Shown one piece after another: positions 14,212-51,593 of a DNA stretch of 64,000 nt. The notes beneath the pieces are model-generated. The model worked only from the letters and a program-made list of their open reading frames with translations, was not told the DNA's origin and made no database searches. Origin of the DNA: Dehalococcoidia bacterium (lineage in GTDB: Bacteria; Chloroflexota; Dehalococcoidia; DSTF01; JACRBR01); contig DASQHL010000133.1 in assembly GCA_035632115.1 (NCBI GenBank), positions 792-64,791 of the forward strand, given 5' to 3'. The position numbers were made by a program, and so were the translations under genes. How positions within the stretch are numbered: position 1 is the stretch's first letter; every line of letters starts with the position of its first letter.

Positions 14212-17025
14212 ATGCCTGTACCAGCGGTGCTGCCCGTGAGCGCGCCACGTCGGTGGGCGCAACGTCTCCGCCGGACGTGGCCCCGGACGCCAGCCTCCAT
14301 CGCCATCACCATCGCCCTGGGCGTCAACCTGCTGGTGGCCGGCGCATACCTCTGGAGTCGCGGCGGCGAGACGATTCATCTGCGGATGGTCGCGCAGGAT
14401 GACCACTTCACGGTGTTCGTCAACGGGCGCGAGCAGGCGTCGGCGCGGCTCGAGGCGGCCGCCACGGGCGGCATCCGCCTGACGGTCGCCGACACGGGCG
14501 CGATCCCGAGCCTGCCGACGCCGCGCGGGATCGATAGCGTCCGCGTCACGGACCTCGCCACCAATGCTGTGCTCTTCCAGGACGACTTCTCCAGGTCGCC
14601 GCGGGACAACGCGGCGTGGCGCATCGTGGGGACGCCACTGGTGAACGGCGGTGCCGTCGGCGCAGGCCAGCAGGGCGTGACGCTGCAGTCCTTCGGCCAC
14701 CCGTGGCACAACTACGCCGTCGATGTCACGTATCGCAACATCGTGGCGGCGTCCGTCCGTGTGCGCGCGGCGGACGAGCAGAACGGCGTCGATTTCAGCT
14801 TCCGGCCATTCCGGCACCTGGACAACTCGCTCTCGCTCCTCGTCAACGGCAAGACCGTCACGTCGATCTCCGGTCCGACCCTGAAGCTCTCGCCGCAGAC
14901 GACGATCCGGTCGATGCTGTGGACGCTGCTGGACCCGTATCCAAAGGTCGCGCTGCTGCTGCTCGTGGGGTTGATCGCCGTGGCGGTGCTGCAGTTCGTG
15001 CCGGCGGAGACCGTGCGTGCGCTGCATGTGCCGCTGCCGCGGGCCGCACCGTGGCTCGCCGTCGGAGCGATGGCGGCGGTGGCGTTCGCCGTGACGTTGT
15101 TCCTGGGGTACGTGTACGGGAGCCACATGCCACACGTCCCGGATTCGGTGTCGTACGTGTTCCAGGCGAAGGTGCTGGCTGCGGGCCACCTCTCGGCGCC
15201 GGCGCCCCCCTCTCCGGCGTTCGACTTCTTCTTCCCTCCACTGATCGAGGTGCACCACGGGCGTTGGGCCAGCGTCTACCCGTTCGGCCACCCGCTGGTC
15301 CTCGCGGTCGGCGAGCTGTTCCGCGCCATCTGGCTGGTGCCACCGCTGATCGGCGCGGCGGGCGTGGCGCTGATGTTCGCGGTCGGGCGGCGCCTATACA
15401 ACGTGCGGACGGCGTTGCTGGCCGCCCTGCTGCTGGCCGGCTCGCCGTTCTTCATGATGTCGGCAAGCGACTACATGTCGCACAACACCGCCGCGTTCTA
15501 CGTGCTGCTGTCCGTGCTGTTCCTCGTGTTGCACGATCGGCGGCCGCTGTTGTTCCCGTTCCTCTCCGGTGTCTTCTTCGGGCTGCTCTTCAACACCCGC
15601 CCGCTGACGGCGGCGGGCCTCGTCGCGCCGTACGGCGTCATGCTGCTGAGCTTCCTGGTGCCCCGCAACGGGCGGAAACTCGCGCTGAAGCAGATCGTCG
15701 CATTCGCAGCCGGAGGGCTGCTGATGCTGCTGGCGTACTACCTGTACACGTGGGGCGCGACGGGTAGCCCGTTCACGATCTCCGCCACGCAGGCGAATAA
15801 GAACAACGTCGGGTTCGGCGGGACCCACACCCTGGCTGCCGGCGTCTCGAACGACCAGACGCAGCTGGCCATGCTGGCTCTTGTCCTCAACGACTGGCCC
15901 GTGTACCTCGGCCTGGTGGTGGTGCTCCTGCCGTTCATCCTGGGTACGCGCAACCGCTGGGACTGGTTCTTCCTCGCGTGCGCGGCCATGGCCATGGGCG
16001 TGTACACGCTCTACTACTCGCCGGGAATCATGCACGGGCCGCGGTACTGGTACGAGGCGACGCCGTTCCTGCTCCTCCTGACGGCGCGTGGCGTCGACCG
16101 CGCGGCGCGGTTGCTGGCGGCCGGCGCGGCGCACCTGCGGACGCGGCTGCTGCGCACGGAGGCCGCGCCGGCCGAGTGGGCCGGCGTGTCCGTCACGTAC
16201 GCGTTCGTCGTCGTGCTGATAGCGGCGGGCGCCTACGGGTGGCTGCGCGGCGACGGCAAGCCCTGGCGCATCGACCTCATGCCGGCGCATGCGCGCGACC
16301 TGCGTGGATTCAACGGCGCCAACGACGCCTTCACCCGGACGGTCGCCGCTGCCCACCTGCACAACGCCCTCGTGCTGATGCAGCCGTGCCCGAACTGGCA
16401 GTGCTACGGCACCGTGTTCTGGACCATGTCGCCGTGGCTCACCGGGAACGTGGTCTACGCGCGGAACCTCGATGGTGGGCTCCAGCCCGTCTTTGACGCC
16501 TTCCCGGATCGCCGGGTCTACATCGGCGACTGGGCTGCGCGCACCCTCCTGCCCTACGGCGCCACGCCGGCCGCGGTCGGGCCCTCGCAAGGCCCGGCGA
16601 CCGCGCCGCGCGCGAAGGAGATCCCCACCGAGGCACCGCGCGCCACGCCCACCCCGGCGCCGACTCCGACCATCGATGTGGCGCTCGCGTCGCGGCGGGA
16701 TACCGCCCGCCGCAAGGATCTGGACGCCGTGGCAGCGGCGCTCGATCGGTACCGGTCGCAGCACGGCGCCTATCCGCAGGTCAACGGCGTGCAGACGCTC
16801 TGCGGCTACCCGTCCGATGTCGGCTGCGTGCTCAAGAAGGTGCTCGACCCGCTGCCGACCGACCCACGGAACAACCAGTCGTACTGGTACACGTCTGACG
16901 GCACGTCGTTCACGCTGTTTGCGGAGATGGAAGAGGCGCCCGGGCCGTCCCAGTGCCCCAACCCCGCGCCCGAGCACCTGGCCGGCGTGCCGAATCTGTA
17001 CTGCGTCCATCGTGGCTCCGGTTGA
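14212..17025 (+). CDS. PMT/ArnT-like (GT-C fold, PMT_2/GT39-GT83-like) membrane glycosyltransferase with an N-terminal beta-rich extracytoplasmic domain and a C-terminal T2SS GspG/pseudopilin-like domain
   Basis: Uses the frame of ORF 13270..17025, whose 5' part is antisense to the GT2 gene. Candidate starts are the ATGs at ~14110 and ~14212. There are at least 10 predicted TM helices. C-terminal motif LDAVAAALDRYRSQHGAYPQ…DPLPTDPRNNQSYWYTSDGTSFTLFAEME matches GspG-type pseudopilin globular domains. Confidence 0.75.
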   Translation: MPVPAVLPVSAPRRWAQRLRRTWPRTPASIAITIALGVNLLVAGAYLWSRGGETIHLRMVAQDDHFTVFVNGREQASARLEAAATGGIRLTVADTGAIPSLPTPRGIDSVRVTDLATNAVLFQDDFSRSPRDNAAWRIVGTPLVNGGAVGAGQQGVTLQSFGHPWHNYAVDVTYRNIVAASVRVRAADEQNGVDFSFRPFRHLDNSLSLLVNGKTVTSISGPTLKLSPQTTIRSMLWTLLDPYPKVALLLLVGLIAVAVLQFVPAETVRALHVPLPRAAPWLAVGAMAAVAFAVTLFLGYVYGSHMPHVPDSVSYVFQAKVLAAGHLSAPAPPSPAFDFFFPPLIEVHHGRWASVYPFGHPLVLAVGELFRAIWLVPPLIGAAGVALMFAVGRRLYNVRTALLAALLLAGSPFFMMSASDYMSHNTAAFYVLLSVLFLVLHDRRPLLFPFLSGVFFGLLFNTRPLTAAGLVAPYGVMLLSFLVPRNGRKLALKQIVAFAAGGLLMLLAYYLYTWGATGSPFTISATQANKNNVGFGGTHTLAAGVSNDQTQLAMLALVLNDWPVYLGLVVVLLPFILGTRNRWDWFFLACAAMAMGVYTLYYSPGIMHGPRYWYEATPFLLLLTARGVDRAARLLAAGAAHLRTRLLRTEAAPAEWAGVSVTYAFVVVLIAAGAYGWLRGDGKPWRIDLMPAHARDLRGFNGANDAFTRTVAAAHLHNALVLMQPCPNWQCYGTVFWTMSPWLTGNVVYARNLDGGLQPVFDAFPDRRVYIGDWAARTLLPYGATPAAVGPSQGPATAPRAKEIPTEAPRATPTPAPTPTIDVALASRRDTARRKDLDAVAAALDRYRSQHGAYPQVNGVQTLCGYPSDVGCVLKKVLDPLPTDPRNNQSYWYTSDGTSFTLFAEMEEAPGPSQCPNPAPEHLAGVPNLYCVHRGSG

Positions 17026-17165
17026 CCGGCCCTGCTCGAGCGGCGGGGTATGATGGTGCCCGATATGGAGCATGAGGCCCCAGCCGCCCGCCCGCGCACG
17101 GTGGCACGCGCTCTGCCACGCCCGTCCCGGCTGACGAACGACCTGCGCATTAGCCTCCTGAAACC

Positions 17166-19157
17166 GTGATGATGCCTAGAAATCCCTTCGACATCCTTGG
17201 CATCTCGTTGGACGCCGAGCCAGAGGTCATCCTAGCCGCCTACAGGACGCTTGCGAAGAAGTACCATCCTGACCTTAACCCTAACGATTCGCCAAGTTAC
17301 CTCAACGAGCGCATGGCCGATCTGAACTGGGCGCGAGCAGAACTCGATCGCGATCTGCCCGGCTGGCGAGCGAGGAAGAGAGCCGAGACGCGCCAGTCGG
17401 GCGCTGGATACGCACAGCCACGCCAACCCCCCCCCCCACGTCACGCTCCAGCGCCGTCGGATGCGCCGCCCTCCAAAGCCCCGGGCCAGGCCCAAAGTAC
17501 CGGCGCAGGTACCGTTTCCGAAGCTCAAGCTACACGCGCGCCACGGCCGTCGTGGCTATCGAACGAACTGCTCATCGAGATCGCGTTCGTCGCCGCCGTG
17601 ACCGCGGCGGCGCTGCTGATGCGCCTGTGGGGTCTCTCCGGCCTGCCGCACGGGCTCCACGGCGACGAGGCGGCGACCGGCCTCGACGCGCGAAAGATCC
17701 TCGCCGGCACCGACCTCTTCCCCTACACGCCGAGCGCGCTCGGCCAGCCGTCCGGGCCGATGTACTGGGCGGCGCTCTGGATCAAGCTCCTCGGCTCGAC
17801 GATCTTCGCTGTCCGCCTGGCCATGGCACTGCTCGGCGTAGGCACGGTCGTCCTCGGCTACTACGCGTTTCGGCTGCTCTTCGGGCGGCCGGTGGCATGG
17901 GCGGGCGCCACCATGCTCGCCTTCTCATCGTGGCTCGTCTTCTACAACCGCACAGGCTTCACCGCATCGGCGATGCCGTTCACGGAGATGGCGGCGCTGC
18001 TGGCCGTGGCCGTGGCGCTGCGAAAGGGTTCGCCCGCGTGGTTCATCCTCGCCGGCGCAGTGGTGGGCGCCGGCATCTACGGCTACTTCTCGTTCCCGCT
18101 CTTCGCCGTGGCGCTCGCGGTGTGGCTCGTCCTCCACGCGCTCGTCGAGCGGCTGCGACCGTTCGGCCTCACTGAGCCGTTCTGGCTGCACGCGCGCAAC
18201 GGCGCGCTGATGGCGCTGACCGCGCTGCTGCTCATCCAGCCGATGTGGCCCTACTTCACCGGCAAGAACCAGGGCTACACGCACGACCGCCAGGTGTTCG
18301 CACTCTCGAAGACACAGGCATACCAGCAGGCGGACACCCTCGGGCGTGTGCGGCTCTACTGGGACAACGCCCGCCACGTGATCAACGTGCTGCGGGAAGG
18401 TGGCCACCCCGACGCCTCGGACGGCTCGGGCGAAGTGTCGGCGCTGGACCCGCTACTGGTCGTGCTCTCACTGGCCGGCGCGGCCCTGTGCGCCGTCCTT
18501 GCCGTGACGCGGAAGCGCGCCGCCTACCTGCTGCCGCTGATCGTCGTCCCGATCGTGCTCATCGGCCCCATCTGGAGCGCCGGCGGCGTGCACCGGCGCT
18601 CGCTGGGGATCCTGCCCTTTGTGATCATGCCGGCCGCCGTGCTGCTGGGCACTGCGTGGGAGTGGCTCCGCGACCACGGCCGGCCGGGGCTTGCGGCGGC
18701 CGCCCTCTGCGTGCCGCTGGCGCTGTTCGCCGCCACGAACATCGACCGCTACTTCCGCCAGACGCCGGACTCGCAGGTGATGCTGTTCACCTACGCGCCG
18801 GAGCTGACCGACGCGGCGCTGCTGATCGATGCGCAGCCCCGGGACGTGCACGTCTACTTCGCCTCCGGGCGCTGGTCGGCCGGGTACGAGACGGTGCAGT
18901 ACCTCGTGCCGAATCGCGCGCTCGGCGACGGCACGCTGGAGGACCGGTCGAAGGAGTTCAGCAAGATCACCGGGTACGGCGGCCTCGACCGGACGCACCC
19001 TGCCTTGATCGTGCTCATGAACAACTACATGCAGGACGCGGACAAGGTCGCCGCCGAGTACCCGGAAGCGAAGAAGCTCGTCGGCGCCACGGTGAACAGG
19101 CTGCCGGCCTTCATCGCATTCTCCATCCCGGCACGGCAGGCGACGGGCGCGCCATGA
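17166..19157 (+). CDS. DnaJ J-domain fused to a PMT/ArnT-like (PMT_2) GT-C membrane glycosyltransferase
   Basis: N-terminal J domain with HPD (FDILGISLDAEPEVILAAYRTLAKKYHPDLNPND). Pro-rich linker. Multi-TM GT-C domain with the ArnT/PMT-type motif LHGDEAATGLDARKI in the first periplasmic loop. Confidence 0.8.
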   Translation: MMMPRNPFDILGISLDAEPEVILAAYRTLAKKYHPDLNPNDSPSYLNERMADLNWARAELDRDLPGWRARKRAETRQSGAGYAQPRQPPPPRHAPAPSDAPPSKAPGQAQSTGAGTVSEAQATRAPRPSWLSNELLIEIAFVAAVTAAALLMRLWGLSGLPHGLHGDEAATGLDARKILAGTDLFPYTPSALGQPSGPMYWAALWIKLLGSTIFAVRLAMALLGVGTVVLGYYAFRLLFGRPVAWAGATMLAFSSWLVFYNRTGFTASAMPFTEMAALLAVAVALRKGSPAWFILAGAVVGAGIYGYFSFPLFAVALAVWLVLHALVERLRPFGLTEPFWLHARNGALMALTALLLIQPMWPYFTGKNQGYTHDRQVFALSKTQAYQQADTLGRVRLYWDNARHVINVLREGGHPDASDGSGEVSALDPLLVVLSLAGAALCAVLAVTRKRAAYLLPLIVVPIVLIGPIWSAGGVHRRSLGILPFVIMPAAVLLGTAWEWLRDHGRPGLAAAALCVPLALFAATNIDRYFRQTPDSQVMLFTYAPELTDAALLIDAQPRDVHVYFASGRWSAGYETVQYLVPNRALGDGTLEDRSKEFSKITGYGGLDRTHPALIVLMNNYMQDADKVAAEYPEAKKLVGATVNRLPAFIAFSIPARQATGAP

Positions 19158-19159
19158 GC

Positions 19160-19184
19160 AAACGCCCGGCAGTCCACCGGGCGT
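19160..19184. terminator. Probable bidirectional intrinsic terminator (hairpin AACGCCCGG-N7-CCGGGCGTT) between convergent genes
   Basis: 9-bp perfect GC-rich stem immediately after the stop of the J-domain GT-C gene and about 30 nt beyond the erpA stop. Confidence 0.45.
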
Positions 19185-19214
19185 TGCGTCATCTCGTGCC
19201 TGAGTGGGAGCCGG

Positions 19215-19592
19215 CTAGCAGCAGCTCTTCGCCTGGCCGCCGCCGTCGGCCGTTTGGAAGCTCGAACCGCACGCGCAGCCCTTGACGGCGTTCGGATTGA
19301 AGATCGTGAACCCGGACTTCATGATGTCGTCCACGTAGTCGATCTCCGCGCCCCGCATCAGCGGCGCGCTCTCCGGATCAACCAGCACCTTCACGCCCGC
19401 GTGTTCGAGCACGATGTCGCCCTCTTCGGTGCCCTGGGCGATCGCCATGCCGTACTGGTAGCCGGAGCAGCCGCCCCCGACGACGAAGACGCGCAGCGCG
19501 CCGTTCTCGACGCCGCGGTCCTTGAGCAGCGCCGCCGCCTTCTCCGCCGCCTTGTCCGTGATCGTCACGATGGCTTCGATGTCCTGGACCAT
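19215..19592 (-). CDS. erpA: Iron-sulfur cluster insertion/A-type carrier protein (ErpA/IscA/HesB family)
   Basis: ATG at 19592 preceded by GAAGGGAG. Three conserved Cys (…GGGCSGYQYG…KGCACGSSF). 125 aa. The rest of ORF 19215..19943 is an upstream extension without an RBS. Confidence 0.85.
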   Translation of the reverse strand: MVQDIEAIVTITDKAAEKAAALLKDRGVENGALRVFVVGGGCSGYQYGMAIAQGTEEGDIVLEHAGVKVLVDPESAPLMRGAEIDYVDDIMKSGFTIFNPNAVKGCACGSSFQTADGGGQAKSCC

Positions 19593-20953: not shown

Positions 20954-21936
20954 TTCGTCAACACCAGCCGGTACACCTGCTGGTCCTTTCCGCCAAGGTC
21001 GTACTTGTAGCTCTCGTCGCCTCGCAGGAAGTCTACGCACGAGCGGCCCTGTTCGATCGCGTCCCGGAGCAGCAGCGCCTTGGACATCAGGCCGACCGCG
21101 TAGTGCGCGTAGGCGGGGTCGTACCCACTATTGTACATGTACAGCCGCCCGCCCAGGTCGAAGTTGAGCACCGCCGCCACCGCCTGGCCATCCAGCGTCA
21201 AGATGTACAGCCGCAGCATCCCCTCCGAGGCCATCGTCGACGTCATCTCCCGGAAGAACGCCTCCATGCCCGGCCGCTCCAGGAACTCCTCCTTGTGGTG
21301 CGAGCTGATGCGCATCAGGTGGAACAGCGTATCGAGCGATGCGCCCGCTTCCTCCGCCTCCGTGACGGCGCGGAGCCGCAGGTCCCCGCCGGCGCTCTCC
21401 AGCCGCCGCAGCTTGCGCCGCAGCTCGTGGCGGTCCTTCTTGGAGAGCGTCGCCAGGTAGCCGTCCCACGTGTCCGGCAGGTCCACCGTCGGCGAGTGCG
21501 CCTCGTCCTCGCGCTGCACGGCCAGGCCCAGGGCGGCGGCGGCATCGGCCGCGGCGGACGTCGTGGGGCTGGCCGCCCGCAGGCCGCGCAGGTCGATTTC
21601 GCGCACCCCGTCCGCCAGCAGGCGTTCCAGCACGGCGGGGAAGAACGACCGCTCGAAGCCCGGCGTCACGACCACGTCCATGTAGTCGCAGATGGAGTAG
21701 TGCCCGACCAGCTCCGCCCGCTCGCCCTCGCAGAGCAACGGCGCCACGCCGATCAGGCGCTCGCCGTCCCGCGCGGTCAGCAGGCGCACGCGGCGCCCCG
21801 CCTGGAAGTGCTTCAGCCAGACGCGTTGCCAGGCCGGCGTGACGAACGGCACCGGGTTCGATACCTGCCCGAGCAGCCCGACCCACTCCGCGCTGATCCG
21901 GTCGAGCGGCTCATCCAGCACCGTCAACGGCGTCAC
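20950..21936 (-). CDS. FemAB/CelD-like GNAT (Acetyltransf_6/BioF2-like) acyl- or aminoacyl-transferase
   Basis: 329-aa protein of the GNAT-fold FemAB/CelD family (…[44 protein letters not shown]…). GTG start overlaps the folE stop (GTGA). Confidence 0.7.
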
Positions 21937-22535
21937 GAGCCGCGCACCAGCGAGAGGAACTCGGCCCGCGTCACCTGGTTCTGCCGGAAGATCCCGCGCG
22001 TCGCCGAGGTGACCATCCGGCTGCCCGGCTTCTTGACACCGCGCTGCGTCATGCACAGGTGTTCCGCTGCGATGACGACGGCGACGCCGTCGGGCTGCAG
22101 CGTCTCCAGGATCGCGTCCGCCACCTGCCCCGTGAGCCGTTCTTGGAGCTGTGGCCGCCGCGCGTACCCCTCGACCAGCCGCGCCAGCTTGCTCACGCCG
22201 ACCACGCGGCCGTCCGGGATGTAGCCGACGGCCGCCGTTCCGTGGAACGGCATGAAGTGGTGCTCACAGACGCTGTAAAACGGGATGTCGCGCAGGATCA
22301 CCATCTCGTCGTGCCCCACCTCGAATCCGACCTTCAGGTACTCCCTCGGGTCGATGTGGAGCCCTTCGAACAGCTCCGCGTACATCCGGGCCACCCGTGC
22401 GGGCGTGTCGCGAAGCCCCTCCCGGTCCGGCGCCTCCCCTACAGCTACGATGATCTCGCGCACGGCGGCCTCGATCCGGCCGAGGTCCATCGGGCCGGAG
22501 GCGTCGATGCGGTGGCGGATGTCTTCGAGCGTCAT
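21933..22535 (-). CDS. folE: GTP cyclohydrolase I
   Basis: 200-aa FolE with catalytic motifs …[21 protein letters not shown]… and the zinc ligands C…HH…C. The rest of ORF 21933..23414 is non-coding or antisense. Confidence 0.9.
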
Positions 22536-49946: not shown

Positions 49947-50263
49947 GGCTCTGGCTGATCGTGCTCGCGATGGGCGCCGGCACCTACGGCATCCGGCTCT
50001 CCGTGCTCGCGCTGGTGCATCATTCGGCCCTGCCGCGCACCGCCCGCGAGGCCCTGCGCTTCGTGACACCCGCCGTGCTCTGCGCCATCGTCCTGCCCGC
50101 GGTCCTCTACACCGGCCCGGCTGCCGCGTTCGATGCCGGGCCGGGCAACCAGCGCCTGCTCTCCGCCATCGTCGCCGCGCTGGTCGCCTGGAGCGCGAAG
50201 AACGTCTGGCTCACGATCGGCGCCGGCATGGGCGTGCTCTGGCTCCTCCAGTGGGCCTCCTGA
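49943..50263 (+). CDS. azlD: AzlD-family branched-chain amino acid exporter small subunit
   Basis: GTG start overlaps the azlC stop (GTGA). 106-aa, 3-4 TM helix AzlD-like protein. Confidence 0.8.
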   Translation: MRLWLIVLAMGAGTYGIRLSVLALVHHSALPRTAREALRFVTPAVLCAIVLPAVLYTGPAAAFDAGPGNQRLLSAIVAALVAWSAKNVWLTIGAGMGVLWLLQWAS

Positions 50264-50321
50264 CCGCTGCGCCTTTGCTACACTGCCGCCACCCCCGCGG
50301 GATCCGCCCGAGGAGATCGCC

Positions 50322-51593
50322 GTGACGATCACCGCATCCGAGATCGAGCAGAAGGCGCGCGAGGCGAAGCAGGCCGCCCGCACGCTCGCCACGCTCTCCA
50401 CCCAGGTCAAGAACGCCGCCCTCAACGCGCTCGCCGACGCGCTAGTGGCACGGACGGACGAGATCCTCGCCGCGAATGCGCGCGACCTTGACCGCGGCCG
50501 CGCGGACGGGCTCACCGCTGCTGTCACCGATCGCCTGACGCTCGACGCAGCCCGGCTCGCCGCCATCGCGAAGGACGTGCGCACCGTCGCCTCGCTGCCG
50601 GACCCGGTCGGCGAGATGCTGGAGATGCGCACCCTCCCCAACGGCATGATGGCCGGCAAGATGCGCGTCCCCTTCGGCGTCATCGGCGCCATCTACGAGA
50701 ACCGCCCGAACGTCACCGTCGACATCGCCTCGCTCTGCCTCAAGGCCGGAAGCGCTACCATCCTGCGCGGCGGCAAGGAGGCGCTGGAGTCCAACGTCGT
50801 CCTCGGGCGCGTGATCCACGCCGCGCTCGCATCCGCCGGCGTCCCGGCTGCTGCCGTCCAGATCATCGAATCGAGCGACCGCGCCATCGTCGCCGAGATG
50901 CTGGCGATGAACCAGTACATCGACCTCGTCGTTCCGCGCGGCGGCGAAGAGCTCATCCGCTTCGTCGAGCGAAACGCGCGGATGCCGGTGCTCATCGGTG
51001 GCATCGGCGTCTGCCACACCTACGTCGATCGCGCCGCGGACCTCGCGAGGGCGCGCGACATCGTCGTCAACGCGAAGACGCGCCGCTACAGCATCTGCAA
51101 CGCGCTCGATACCATCGTCGTCCACGCGGACGTCGCCGCCCGCTTCCTCCCGGACGCCGCCGACGCCCTCGCCGAAAAGGGCGTCGAACTGCGCTGCGAC
51201 GAGCGCGCCCACGCCCTCCTCCGGGGCCGCCCGGGCGTCACGCCCGCCACCGACGCCGACTTCGGCAAGGAGTGGCTCTCCCTCGTCGCCTCCGTCAAGG
51301 TCGTTGATTCGTTCGATGACGCCGTCGATTTCATCTACCGCTACAGCAGCGGCCACTCCGACGCCATCATCACGGAGGACTACTCCGCCGCGATGCGCTT
51401 CCTGCGCGAAGTCGATACCGCCGTCTGCTACGTGAACGCCAGCACGCAGTTCACCGACGGCGCGCAGTTCGGCCTCGGCGCGGAGATCATCGATGCCACC
51501 CAGAAGTTCCACGCCCGCGGCCCCGTCGGCCTGCGCGAGATCTGCACGTACAAGTGGATCGTCTTCGGCACCGGCCAGGTCCGGCCCGCCTGA
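50322..51593 (+). CDS. proA: Gamma-glutamyl phosphate reductase
   Basis: RBS GAGGAG then GTG at 50322. ProA/aldehyde-dehydrogenase motifs (…ICNALDTIVVH…, catalytic Cys). Confidence 0.9.
   Translation: MTITASEIEQKAREAKQAARTLATLSTQVKNAALNALADALVARTDEILAANARDLDRGRADGLTAAVTDRLTLDAARLAAIAKDVRTVASLPDPVGEMLEMRTLPNGMMAGKMRVPFGVIGAIYENRPNVTVDIASLCLKAGSATILRGGKEALESNVVLGRVIHAALASAGVPAAAVQIIESSDRAIVAEMLAMNQYIDLVVPRGGEELIRFVERNARMPVLIGGIGVCHTYVDRAADLARARDIVVNAKTRRYSICNALDTIVVHADVAARFLPDAADALAEKGVELRCDERAHALLRGRPGVTPATDADFGKEWLSLVASVKVVDSFDDAVDFIYRYSSGHSDAIITEDYSAAMRFLREVDTAVCYVNASTQFTDGAQFGLGAEIIDATQKFHARGPVGLREICTYKWIVFGTGQVRPA

What the first reader, a model, noticed from the sequence alone, without database searches (positions are those of the whole stretch)
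17166..17440. J-domain (DnaJ, HPD) fused to a membrane GT-C transferase; the fusion segment is low-GC and ends in an 11-C homopolymer
The first ~65 codons of the 17166-19157 gene encode a canonical J domain (…KKYHPDLNPND…). A J domain on a polytopic periplasm-facing glycosyltransferase implies Hsp70 (DnaK) recruitment to the enzyme, for example coupling chaperoning or translocation of substrates to glycosylation. That arrangement is essentially undescribed in bacteria. The J-domain DNA (17166-~17360) has strikingly atypical composition for this ~72% GC genome: codons such as AGA, AAT, CTT, CTA, AGT, TAC, CCT. This is consistent with recent domain acquisition. The linker then contains a run of 11 consecutive C (17427-17437, encoding PPPP). 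Such homopolymers are slippage-prone, so the downstream GT-C domain could be phase-variable while the J domain remains expressed. Alternatively the run is a sequencing-error hotspot.
Basis: partly seen in the sequence, partly recalled or inferred. Interest (0 to 1): 0.75.

Follow-up and report, generated by a model that had tools for sequence, protein, structure and literature searches.

The report
J-domain cassette inserted into glycosyltransferase gene
A membrane sugar-transferase gene in an uncultured Dehalococcoidia bacterium picked up a chaperone-recruiting J domain through a small DNA insertion whose scars are still visible, giving a domain combination I found nowhere else, but it is known from one metagenome-assembled genome and its function is untested.

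Summary
ORF 17166-19157 (663 aa) encodes an intact N-terminal J domain with HPD, a Pro/Ala-rich linker containing an 11-C run, and a GT39/PMT_2 GT-C enzyme.

Comparison with relatives shows how it arose. About 50 homologues, in identical gene order, are about 550 aa and have no J domain. Their start region and first 39 codons survive in the window at 17050-17169, out of frame. This remnant ends in a TGA that overlaps the ATG of the J ORF (TGATG). The J domain and linker (about 17151-17539) are flanked by a diverged 36-46-nt direct duplication of the target. GC3 of the insert is 0.65, against 0.91 for the window. The nearest relatives of the J domain are standalone or membrane-anchored J proteins from organisms of about 64% GC.

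The GT part shows no relaxed selection, and a complete TM1 can only be translated through the J ORF. I conclude the fusion is real and expressed. Recruitment of DnaK to the cytoplasmic face is inferred, not shown.

Phase variation at the C tract is compatible with the reading frames, but there is no evidence for it. The tract is also not exceptional for this base composition.

No other J-GT-C fusion appeared among the top hits from 1.84 billion representative proteins. This is a singleton from one MAG.

The parts
17050..17169 (+). Remnant leader ORF (39 codons, MMVPDMEHEAPAARPRTVARALPRPSRLTNDLRISLLKP*). This is the original start region and N-terminus of the GT39 gene. It now sits in frame +1 relative to the J ORF.
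   Evidence: It aligns to the start region of the un-inserted orthologues L001 and L002, including an identical GGGTATGATGGTGCCCGATATGGA block. The peptide matches the N-termini of P0002-P0006. The 24-nt gap after the upstream gene equals the 22-26-nt gap in the homologous loci.
17115..17150 (+). Direct repeat, copy 1 (target duplication, left). It can be extended to 17105 if a 3-nt gap is allowed.
   Evidence: the repeat finder family D1: 36 nt, 81% identity, spacing 425 nt.
17151..17539 (+). Inserted DNA: 18 nt of leader, then the J domain and the Pro/Ala-rich linker.
   Evidence: Absent from all homologues. GC3 is 0.65 against a window mean of 0.91. The J part is 79% identical in nucleotides to L005 4306-4500.
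17167..17171 (+). TGATG stop/start overlap. The TGA of the remnant ORF overlaps the ATG (17169) of the J-GT39 ORF. A second TGA/ATG pair follows directly.
   Evidence: Sequence and the frame table. There is no Shine-Dalgarno-like match upstream of 17166-17172.
17184..17327 (+). J domain core (aa 7-54 by Pfam). The model puts helices at aa 7-11, 19-32 and 43-78. HPD lies at 17265-17273.
17400..17561 (+). Disordered, basic, Pro/Ala-rich linker (about aa 79-132).
   Evidence: Low pLDDT and no secondary structure in the model.
17427..17437 (+). 11-C homopolymer (PPPP) inside the linker.
   Evidence: With 10 or 13 C the product is 144-145 aa. With 9 or 12 C it is 335-336 aa. All of these lack the GT domain.
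17540..17575 (+). Direct repeat, copy 2 (target duplication, right). It encodes PRPSWLSNELLI, where the GT39 sequence resumes.
17562..17639 (+). TM1 of the GT-C enzyme (aa 133-158).
   Evidence: Helix 133-158 in the model. Hydrophobic segment 131-160. Conserved in homologues.
17658..17669 (+). HGDE motif in the first extracytoplasmic loop. This is the acidic pair expected of GT-C enzymes.
   Evidence: G43, D44 and E45 of alignment A2 are invariant and H42 is nearly invariant (at least 90%) in 28 sequences. Position.
17754..18149 (+). PMT_2 (PF13231) core of the GT39-type glycosyltransferase.
17166..19157 (+). Complete chimeric ORF, J domain - linker - GT39, 663 aa.
   Evidence: The NCBI protein P0001 for the same gene starts only at GTG 17598, inside TM1.

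Best explanation
This is a genuine, lineage-specific gene fusion in a Dehalococcoidia MAG.

**How it arose.** A fragment of about 390 bp was inserted after codon 34 of a conserved GT39/PMT_2 glycosyltransferase gene. The fragment carried the start codon, J domain and juxtamembrane linker of a J protein from a lower-GC relative. Its closest relatives are J-linker-TM proteins. The insertion duplicated about 36-46 nt of the target.

**How it is probably expressed.** The old ribosome-binding region and first 39 codons remain as a short leader ORF. The stop of that ORF overlaps the J start (TGATG). Ribosomes probably terminate there and re-initiate, producing one 663-aa protein.

**Layout of the protein.** A cytoplasmic J domain (HPD intact) is followed by a flexible linker of about 55 residues and then TM1 of a polytopic GT-C enzyme. 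The catalytic HGDE loop of that enzyme faces outward.

**Likely function.** The J domain would dock ATP-bound DnaK at the cytoplasmic face of the enzyme. The most likely role is to help insertion, folding or turnover of this large membrane protein, or to concentrate DnaK at that membrane site.

**Status of each step.** Shown: the insertion anatomy, the foreign composition, the intact domains, the continued constraint on the GT part and the uniqueness of the architecture. Inferred: translational coupling, cytoplasmic location of the J domain, DnaK recruitment and its purpose.
For: **Insertion**
- All 51 homologues have PMT_2 only, and the full-length close ones are about 545-560 aa.
- Their N-terminus is found at 17050-17169, out of frame.
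- Gene order is identical in L001-L004.
- A direct repeat lies at 17115-17150 and 17540-17575.

**Foreign origin**
- GC3 is 0.65-0.69, against 0.91 for the window.
- The J DNA is 79% identical to L005, which has GC 0.64 and gene GC3 mostly 0.72-0.74.
- The J subfamily includes J-linker-TM proteins P0112, P0143 and P0145.

**J domain intact**
- Pfam score is above the cut-off.
- HPD and the basic residues of helix II are invariant in the family.
- The AF2 model has pLDDT 82, and every top PDB fold match is a J domain, including the DnaK-bound 5NRO_B.
- dN/dS against L005 is 0.10.

**GT part still constrained**
- The window has 38 lineage-unique amino-acid changes and L001 has 37. Pairwise dN/dS is about 0.16.

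**Fusion required for expression**
- There is no in-frame start codon between codon 50 and codon 145, which lies in the middle of TM1. There is none in the other two frames before the C tract either.

**Topology**
- The invariant HGDE motif follows TM1.
- Homologues carry zinc-ribbon, PAS or receiver modules at the same N-terminus.
Against: - The fusion is known from one assembly only. No reads, second genome or metagenome contig confirm the junctions or the C-tract length.
- There is no Shine-Dalgarno-like sequence before the J start, so expression depends on an inferred coupling mechanism.
- No sister lineage retains the fusion, so there is no evidence of long-term selection for the J domain in this context. 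The dN/dS of the J domain is measured over a path that is mostly pre-insertion history.
- The argument for constraint after the insertion depends on a rough age estimate from 7 mismatches in 36 nt.
- There is no functional link between DnaK and GT-C enzymes in the literature I could search.
Confidence: 0.6

Rival explanations
1. The fusion is real, but the J domain is a passenger. The insertion happened to supply a start codon and an in-frame N-terminal extension, which kept the essential GT39 enzyme expressed. The J domain is tolerated and has no role tied to the enzyme. It looks intact only because too little time has passed for it to decay.
For: - The fusion is a singleton among about 50 orthologues and among the top hits from 1.84 billion representatives.
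- The N-terminus of this GT family accepts many unrelated modules, so it is permissive.
- GC3 of the insert has not ameliorated, so the insert is relatively young.
- The window's J domain has slightly more lineage-specific amino-acid changes (P15L, A28T, A48E) than its closest relative.
Against: - HPD, the basic face of helix II and every family-invariant residue are retained.
- There are no stops or frameshifts in 125 inserted codons, although the flanking duplicates have diverged by 19%.
- The donor family already includes J-linker-TM proteins, so the module arrives suited to working next to a membrane.
Confidence: 0.25
2. The 11-C tract is a contingency switch. Slippage toggles between the full J-GT39 enzyme (11 C) and a truncated soluble J protein with no glycosyltransferase (10 or 12 C), giving phase-variable surface glycosylation.
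For: - It is the only homopolymer longer than 7 nt in 64 kb.
- Changes of +1 or -1 give 144-aa or 336-aa products that keep the J domain and lose the GT domain.
- In the closest J relative (L005-L008), the J ORF and the downstream linker-TM ORF are split by a frameshift at the equivalent junction, next to C5 and G5 runs. This is seen in four near-identical contigs.
Against: - No length polymorphism could be observed (one search gave 0 hits).
- A tract of this kind is expected by composition in 13% of shuffles.
- Pro runs are common in this linker family, for example PPPPP in P0054, so the tract may simply encode prolines.
- SSR phase variation has not, to my knowledge, been described in Dehalococcoidia.
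- The GT part shows ordinary purifying selection.
Confidence: 0.1
3. The feature is an artefact or a dead gene. Either the contig is mis-assembled or has a homopolymer miscount, or the insertion inactivated the GT39 gene, so the long ORF is a coincidence. The NCBI annotation, which ignores the J part, would then be closer to the truth.
For: - The source is a MAG and I had no access to reads.
- NCBI calls only a 519-aa product starting at 17598.
- Homopolymers are sequencing-error hotspots.
- A random insertion is in frame one time in three.
Against: - A de Bruijn mis-join cannot create a diverged (81% identical) flanking duplication plus a stranded leader ORF.
- The 519-aa call begins in the middle of TM1 and lacks residues present in all homologues.
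- The GT part evolves under the same constraint as its un-inserted orthologue.
- The frame is open across 663 codons with the tract as assembled.
Confidence: 0.07

Closest known systems
Un-fused orthologous GT39/PMT_2 glycosyltransferases of Dehalococcoidia (P0002-P0008; loci L001-L004)
   Same: They are 60-79% identical over the whole GT part. They share the gene neighbourhood (GT2, 931-aa GT39 paralogue, Fe-S protein, GT4, acetyltransferase, GTP cyclohydrolase I) and the same HGDE loop.
   Different: They start about 30 residues before TM1 with MxxDME... and have no J domain, no linker and no C tract. In the window that N-terminus is stranded as a leader ORF.
J-linker-TM proteins of the same J subfamily (P0112, P0143, P0145; L005 J ORF P0052 plus the overlapping TM ORF)
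   Same: The J subtype is the same (NPFEILGISPDAEPEV..AAYRALA.KYHPD..LNWA..EL.RDL.GWR). It is followed by a basic, Pro-rich linker and then a membrane helix, so the J domain sits on the cytoplasmic side of the membrane.
   Different: Their membrane part is a single helix plus a small, uncharacterised extracytoplasmic domain. It is not a polytopic enzyme.
E. coli membrane-anchored J proteins DjlA, DjlB and DjlC (from established knowledge; DjlA appears in the papers listed)
   Same: A J domain is tethered to the cytoplasmic face of the inner membrane and localises DnaK or HscC there. DjlA overproduction acts on the Rcs capsule pathway, which is a precedent for a link between a membrane J protein and envelope polysaccharide.
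   Different: DjlA has an N-terminal TM segment and a C-terminal J domain, and none of these proteins is fused to an enzyme. I detected no sequence relationship beyond the J domain.
GT39 homologues with other N-terminal cytoplasmic modules (double zinc ribbon in P0207, P0126 and P0252; PAS in P0183, P0045 and P0141; receiver-like in P0192)
   Same: The design principle is the same: a soluble cytoplasmic module, then a low-complexity linker, then TM1 of the same GT-C family.
   Different: Those modules are sensory, regulatory or zinc-binding. None is a co-chaperone domain.
Eukaryotic membrane J proteins that recruit Hsp70 to a membrane machine (Sec63, Pam18/Tim14), and the DNAJB1-PRKACA J-enzyme chimera (PDB 4WB7 and 8FE2 appear among the fold matches)
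   Same: A J domain is placed on a membrane protein, or on the N-terminus of an enzyme, by a genomic rearrangement. It brings Hsp70 to a specific site or client.
   Different: These are different kingdoms and partners, and there is no homology outside the J domain. The Sec63 J domain faces the ER lumen.

Membership tests
J-domain protein (Hsp40 co-chaperone, PF00226) | Sequence match to the DnaJ-domain profile above the curated threshold | tested here: met
   35.2 bits against a cut-off of 27.8, aa 7-54. phmmer hits to 45 solved J domains, best E = 2.5e-7.
J-domain protein (Hsp40 co-chaperone, PF00226) | HPD tripeptide in the loop between helices II and III | tested here: met
   H34-P35-D36 at 17265-17273. 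Invariant in alignments A1 and A3. The model places it between helix 19-32 and helix 43-78.
J-domain protein (Hsp40 co-chaperone, PF00226) | Helical-hairpin J fold with a basic helix II | tested here: met
   AF2 model with 42 sequences, pLDDT 81.9. All of the top ~36 Foldseek PDB matches are J domains at probability 0.99-1.00, including 5NRO_B at rmsd 2.2 A over 64 columns. K31 and K32 are invariant and R27 nearly invariant. Helix IV is not resolved separately, because helix III runs on as one long helix.
J-domain protein (Hsp40 co-chaperone, PF00226) | Stimulates the ATPase of its Hsp70 partner in an HPD-dependent way | not testable with these tools
   Needs biochemistry or a J-domain swap complementation assay.
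GT-C glycosyltransferase, GT39/PMT_2 type | Match to PF13231 above the curated threshold | tested here: met
   49.1 bits against 26.1. NCBI names the identical protein 'glycosyltransferase family 39 protein'.
GT-C glycosyltransferase, GT39/PMT_2 type | Polytopic membrane protein with a conserved acidic motif in the first loop after TM1 | tested here: met
   At least 9 hydrophobic segments. In the HGDE motif (aa 165-168), G, D and E are invariant and H nearly invariant in 28 homologues.
GT-C glycosyltransferase, GT39/PMT_2 type | Detectable relationship to a solved GT-C structure | tested here: inconclusive
   The single sequence gave no PDB hit. The family profile gave one weak hit, a protein O-mannosyltransferase (9i5k), at E = 5.8e-4. 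No full-length model was made.
GT-C glycosyltransferase, GT39/PMT_2 type | Uses a polyprenyl-phosphate-linked sugar donor on the outer face of the membrane | not testable with these tools
   Donor and acceptor are unknown.
Phase-variable (simple-sequence contingency) gene | Long homopolymer inside the ORF whose +1/-1 change switches the product off | tested here: met
   11 C at 17427-17437. With 10 C the product is 144 aa, and with 12 C it is 336 aa. No rescue start exists.
Phase-variable (simple-sequence contingency) gene | Tract length varies within or between populations | tested here: inconclusive
   An exact-flank search of JGI metagenome contigs allowing 8-14 nt between the flanks gave 0 hits. 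No reads or second assembly were available.
Phase-variable (simple-sequence contingency) gene | Tract is longer or more frequent than composition predicts | tested here: not met
   13 of 100 dinucleotide-preserving shuffles reach the observed number of C9 matches. It is nonetheless the only run longer than 7 nt in the real window.
Transposable element / MITE insertion | Terminal inverted repeats, a short target duplication (2-14 bp) and multiple copies | tested here: not met
   There are no inverted repeats at the ends of the insert (17151-17539). The only pair spanning it, I3, is a weak 71% self-match within the target duplication. The duplication is 36-46 nt. There is no second copy of the insert or the J domain in the window.
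DjlA-type membrane J protein | N-terminal transmembrane segment with a C-terminal J domain | tested here: not met
   The order is reversed here: J domain at aa 7-78 and first TM at aa 133-158.

The most novel reading that the evidence does not exclude
The J domain is functionally integrated with the enzyme. It recruits DnaK to a periplasm-facing GT-C glycosyltransferase, for example to gate its membrane insertion or turnover, or to hand over substrates. In addition, the C11 tract at the J-linker boundary acts as a slippage switch that separates a soluble J protein from the enzyme. The closest relative (L005) hints at the same behaviour, because its J ORF and TM ORF are split by a frameshift at the equivalent position.
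Probability: 0.1. Interest if true: 0.75.

Novelty: new variant of a known kind. Interest (0 to 1): 0.45.

Why it matters
J domains decide where Hsp70 acts. Placing one on a polytopic glycosyltransferase would be a new kind of chaperone targeting in bacteria.

The locus is also an unusually clear record of how a multidomain protein is born. Four things are still visible together:
- the donor type;
- the target duplication;
- the stranded original start, re-used as a coupling leader;
- the un-ameliorated base composition.

The locus also shows that the public annotation of this gene (519 aa, starting inside TM1) is probably wrong. The weight of all this is limited, because the fusion is a singleton in one MAG and its function is inferred.

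Tried and rejected
- **Genome-collection scan with a J-domain alignment.** It gave nothing on the source genome or its paralogues.
- **Exact search for the C-tract flanks in metagenome contigs.** No hits, so there are no population data.
- **Family-motif DNA scan (NWARxELxRDL) of metagenome contigs.** Seven hits. Two were true family members (L091 and L094, J plus ExoX-like_C type). The rest were unrelated enzymes. No fusion was found.
- **Look-up of the NCBI protein P0001 to recover the original contig and its annotation.** Not on record.
- **Single-sequence AF2 model of aa 1-200.** pLDDT was 54. I used it only for secondary structure and the TM1 position, and replaced it with an alignment-based J-domain model.
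- **Mobile-element idea.** No terminal inverted repeats and no other copy in the window. Rejected.
- **Idea that a slipped C tract could give a J-less enzyme from another frame.** There are no start codons after the last stops in either alternative frame. Rejected.
- **Sigma-70 promoter and intrinsic-terminator scan of 16900-19300.** Nothing found.
- **First mafft alignment of the window against the homologous loci.** It was misleading because of the duplication, so I redid it as local pairwise alignments.
- **First dN/dS run.** It used the wrong frame. Corrected.
- **Literature searches for a J-domain plus GT-C or GT39 combination.** No relevant paper.
Full report
**1. What is in the sequence**

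The ORF at 17166-19157 (+) is open for 663 codons.
- Pfam finds a DnaJ domain at aa 7-54 (35.2 bits, cut-off 27.8) and PMT_2 at aa 197-328 (49.1 bits, cut-off 26.1). NCBIfam gives only partial J-domain matches to DnaJ models and a weak Agl23-like GT match.
- The HPD codons are at 17265-17273. The run of 11 C at 17427-17437 encodes PPPP.
- GC falls to 0.53-0.59 between 17150 and 17374, in a window of 70.7% GC.
- GC3 is 0.57-0.77 from 17166 to about 17570. It then jumps to 0.87-1.0 for the rest of the gene.
- Coding 65-codon windows across the 64 kb have mean GC3 0.91 (sd 0.08). The J segment (0.69) lies in the lowest 4%, and most other low windows are non-coding 5' extensions of stop-to-stop ORFs.
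- The C tract is the only homopolymer longer than 7 nt in the window. Composition-preserving shuffles produce comparable C runs in 13 of 100 trials, so on its own it is not a statistical anomaly.

**2. The J domain and linker are an insertion into a conserved gene**

- A search of 5.8 billion proteins with the full ORF found 51 relatives. All have PMT_2 only, and none has a DnaJ domain. The full-length close ones (47-79% identity) are 545-560 aa and cover only the last 80% or so of the query.
- NCBI's own product for this gene (P0001, 'MAG TPA: glycosyltransferase family 39 protein [Dehalococcoidia bacterium]') is 519 aa and starts at GTG 17598.
- The N-termini of the close homologues (for example MMVRDMERD...ARPAWLTDERLRELALVAA) are present in the window, but upstream and in another frame. 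Positions 17050-17169 encode MMVPDMEHEAPAARPRTVARALPRPSRLTNDLRISLLKP*.
- At the DNA level, 17036-17147 aligns with the start region of the un-inserted genes in L001 and L002, including an identical 24-nt block around the ATG.
- The gap after the upstream 931-aa GT39 paralogue is 24 nt in the window and 22-26 nt in the homologous loci.
- Gene order is the same throughout: GT2, GT39-931, GT39-550, Fe-S biogenesis, GT4, acetyltransferase, GTP cyclohydrolase I.
- The GT sequence resumes at about 17540 with PRPSWLSNELLIEIAFVAAV.
- The 36 nt at 17115-17150 and at 17540-17575 form a direct repeat of 81% identity, 425 nt apart. This extends to about 43-46 nt if a 3-nt gap is allowed. Both copies share PRPS where homologues have ARPA, which indicates that the duplication arose within this lineage.
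- There are no terminal inverted repeats and no other copy in the window.

This looks like a one-off illegitimate duplicative insertion, not a mobile element.

**3. Where the insert came from**

- The J domain with its linker finds a specific J subfamily (NPFEILGISPDAEPEV..AAYRALA.KYHPD..LNWA..EL.RDL.GWR).
- The closest member is P0052 (76% aa identity), on JGI contigs L005-L008. It is 79% identical in nucleotides across the J domain and even shares the rare CTA codon in GTCATCCTAGCCGCCTAC.
- That organism has GC 0.64 and gene GC3 mostly 0.72-0.74, which matches the insert and not the host.
- dS between the two J domains is about 1.0, so L005 is a relative of the donor and not the donor itself. 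dN/dS is 0.10.
- Members of the subfamily carry varied C-terminal partners. These include a beta-rich domain plus ExoX-like_C (about 330 aa; P0113, P0117, L091, L094), TY-Chap3 (P0149), and a linker followed by one TM helix and a small outer domain (P0112, P0143, P0145).
- In L005 the 80-aa J ORF overlaps, out of frame, an ORF encoding a Pro-rich linker, a TM helix and an outer domain. The four contigs carrying this are 99.97% identical with no gaps, so it is one population and not noisy reads.

The acquired module is therefore of a type that already works next to a membrane.

**4. Is the chimera expressed and functional?**

- The TGA of the remnant ORF (17167-17169) overlaps ATG 17169 (TGATG), and a second TGA/ATG pair follows.
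- No Shine-Dalgarno-like sequence precedes the J start. The original initiation region upstream of 17050 is conserved with homologues. Termination followed by re-initiation is therefore the most economical route to expression. This is inference.
- There is no in-frame ATG, GTG or TTG between codon 50 (inside helix III of the J domain) and codon 145 (the middle of TM1). There is none in the other two frames between their last stop and the C tract. A protein with a complete TM1, which all homologues have, can therefore only be made through the J ORF with the tract as assembled.
- The GT part is not decaying. With L002 as outgroup, the window lineage has 38 unique amino-acid changes and L001 has 37. 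Lineage-specific N/S counts are 30/60 and 24/66. Pairwise dN/dS is about 0.16.
- The flanking duplicates have diverged by 19%. The insertion is therefore not brand new, and a 1.6-kb ORF would be unlikely to stay open and constrained if it were dead. This is an inference from few sites.

**5. Domain integrity and topology**

- HPD, K31 and K32 are invariant and R27 is nearly invariant across 42 family sequences.
- An alignment-based AF2 model (pLDDT 81.9) shows helix I (7-11), helix II (19-32), the HPD loop and a long helix III (43-78).
- All of the top ~36 PDB fold matches are J domains, including the E. coli DnaJ J domain bound to DnaK (5NRO_B; rmsd 2.2 A). phmmer also hits solved J domains.
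- Residues 79-132 are predicted to be disordered, and TM1 is aa 133-158.
- TM1 is followed by HGDE. Its G, D and E are invariant and its H nearly invariant in 28 homologues. This is the expected position of the GT-C acidic motif in the first outward-facing loop (established knowledge of PMT and ArnT structures).
- Homologues carry double zinc ribbons, PAS domains or a receiver-like domain at the same N-terminus. This independently argues that the N-terminus is cytoplasmic, where DnaK is.
- The GT family is only weakly linked to solved structures. The profile gives one hit, to the protein O-mannosyltransferase 9i5k, at E = 5.8e-4, and the single sequence gives none.

**6. How unusual is it?**

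- I ran phmmer with aa 1-230 (J domain, linker, TM1 and first loop) against 1.84 billion representative proteins. It gave 3852 hits.
- Among the best 150, every protein matched either the J part or the GT N-terminal part, and none matched both.
- I inspected the N-terminally extended GT hits, and none contains a J domain.
- Literature searches for the combination found nothing relevant.
- Membrane-tethered J proteins as such are well known. DjlA is one example, and this J subfamily has its own J-linker-TM members.

The novelty is the partner, a polytopic GT-C enzyme, and not the principle.

**7. The C tract**

- With 10 or 13 C the product stops at 144-145 aa. With 9 or 12 C it stops at 335-336 aa. 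All of these keep the J domain and lose the GT domain.
- That is compatible with an ON/OFF switch, and the frameshift split at the same junction in L005 is suggestive.
- However, I could obtain no length variation, the tract is not over-represented for this composition, and proline runs are common in this linker family.

I treat phase variation as an untested minority possibility.

**8. Verdict**

The scars show the mechanism of acquisition: a duplicative insertion into codon 34 of a pre-existing gene, with the old start re-used as a coupling leader.

DnaK recruitment is plausible from domain integrity and topology, but it is unproven. Any link to glycosylation is speculative.

This is a new domain combination of known parts, seen once, in a MAG.

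Noticed in passing
window 14230-17025 (+): The upstream 931-aa GT39 paralogue ends in a domain resembling type II secretion pseudopilin G (Pfam T2SSG, E = 0.001, below the cut-off). The sequence is ...YRSQHGAYPQVNGVQTLCGYPSDVGCVLKKVLDPLPTDP...YWY.... The same C-terminal module recurs on distant GT39 homologues (P0033, P0034, P0036, P0121, P0255).
   Followed up: partly
L005 4306-5335 (also L006-L008): In the closest relative of the J domain, the 80-aa J ORF and the following 272-aa linker-TM-ectodomain ORF overlap by 32 nt in different frames, next to C5 and G5 runs. This could be a split gene, a pseudogene or a frameshift site. The four contigs are 99.97% identical, so it is the consensus of one population.
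   Followed up: partly
window 17598-19157 (+): The public NCBI protein for this gene (P0001, 519 aa) starts at a GTG in the middle of TM1. It omits both the J domain and residues conserved in all homologues, so the start is probably mis-annotated.
   Followed up: yes
proteins P0207, P0126, P0252, P0183, P0045, P0141, P0192 (homologues from other sources): The cytoplasmic N-terminus of this GT39 family is a hotspot for domain accretion. Different members carry a double zinc ribbon, PAS domains or a receiver-like domain ahead of TM1.
   Followed up: partly
window 19161-19185: A perfect 9-bp GC-rich hairpin (AACGCCCGG cagtcca CCGGGCGTT) lies directly after the stop codon, between the convergent GT39 and Fe-S biogenesis genes. 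It has no T run, so the terminator scan did not report it.
   Followed up: no
window 50048-50362 (-) and 21859-22083 (-): These are further stretches of unusually low GC3 (0.62-0.71) inside high-GC3 stop-to-stop ORFs. I did not check whether they are gene 5' ends, non-coding extensions or other foreign segments.
   Followed up: no
window 17232-17528 (-): A 98-aa antisense ORF lies across the insert. It has no support and is probably spurious in this high-GC sequence.
   Followed up: no
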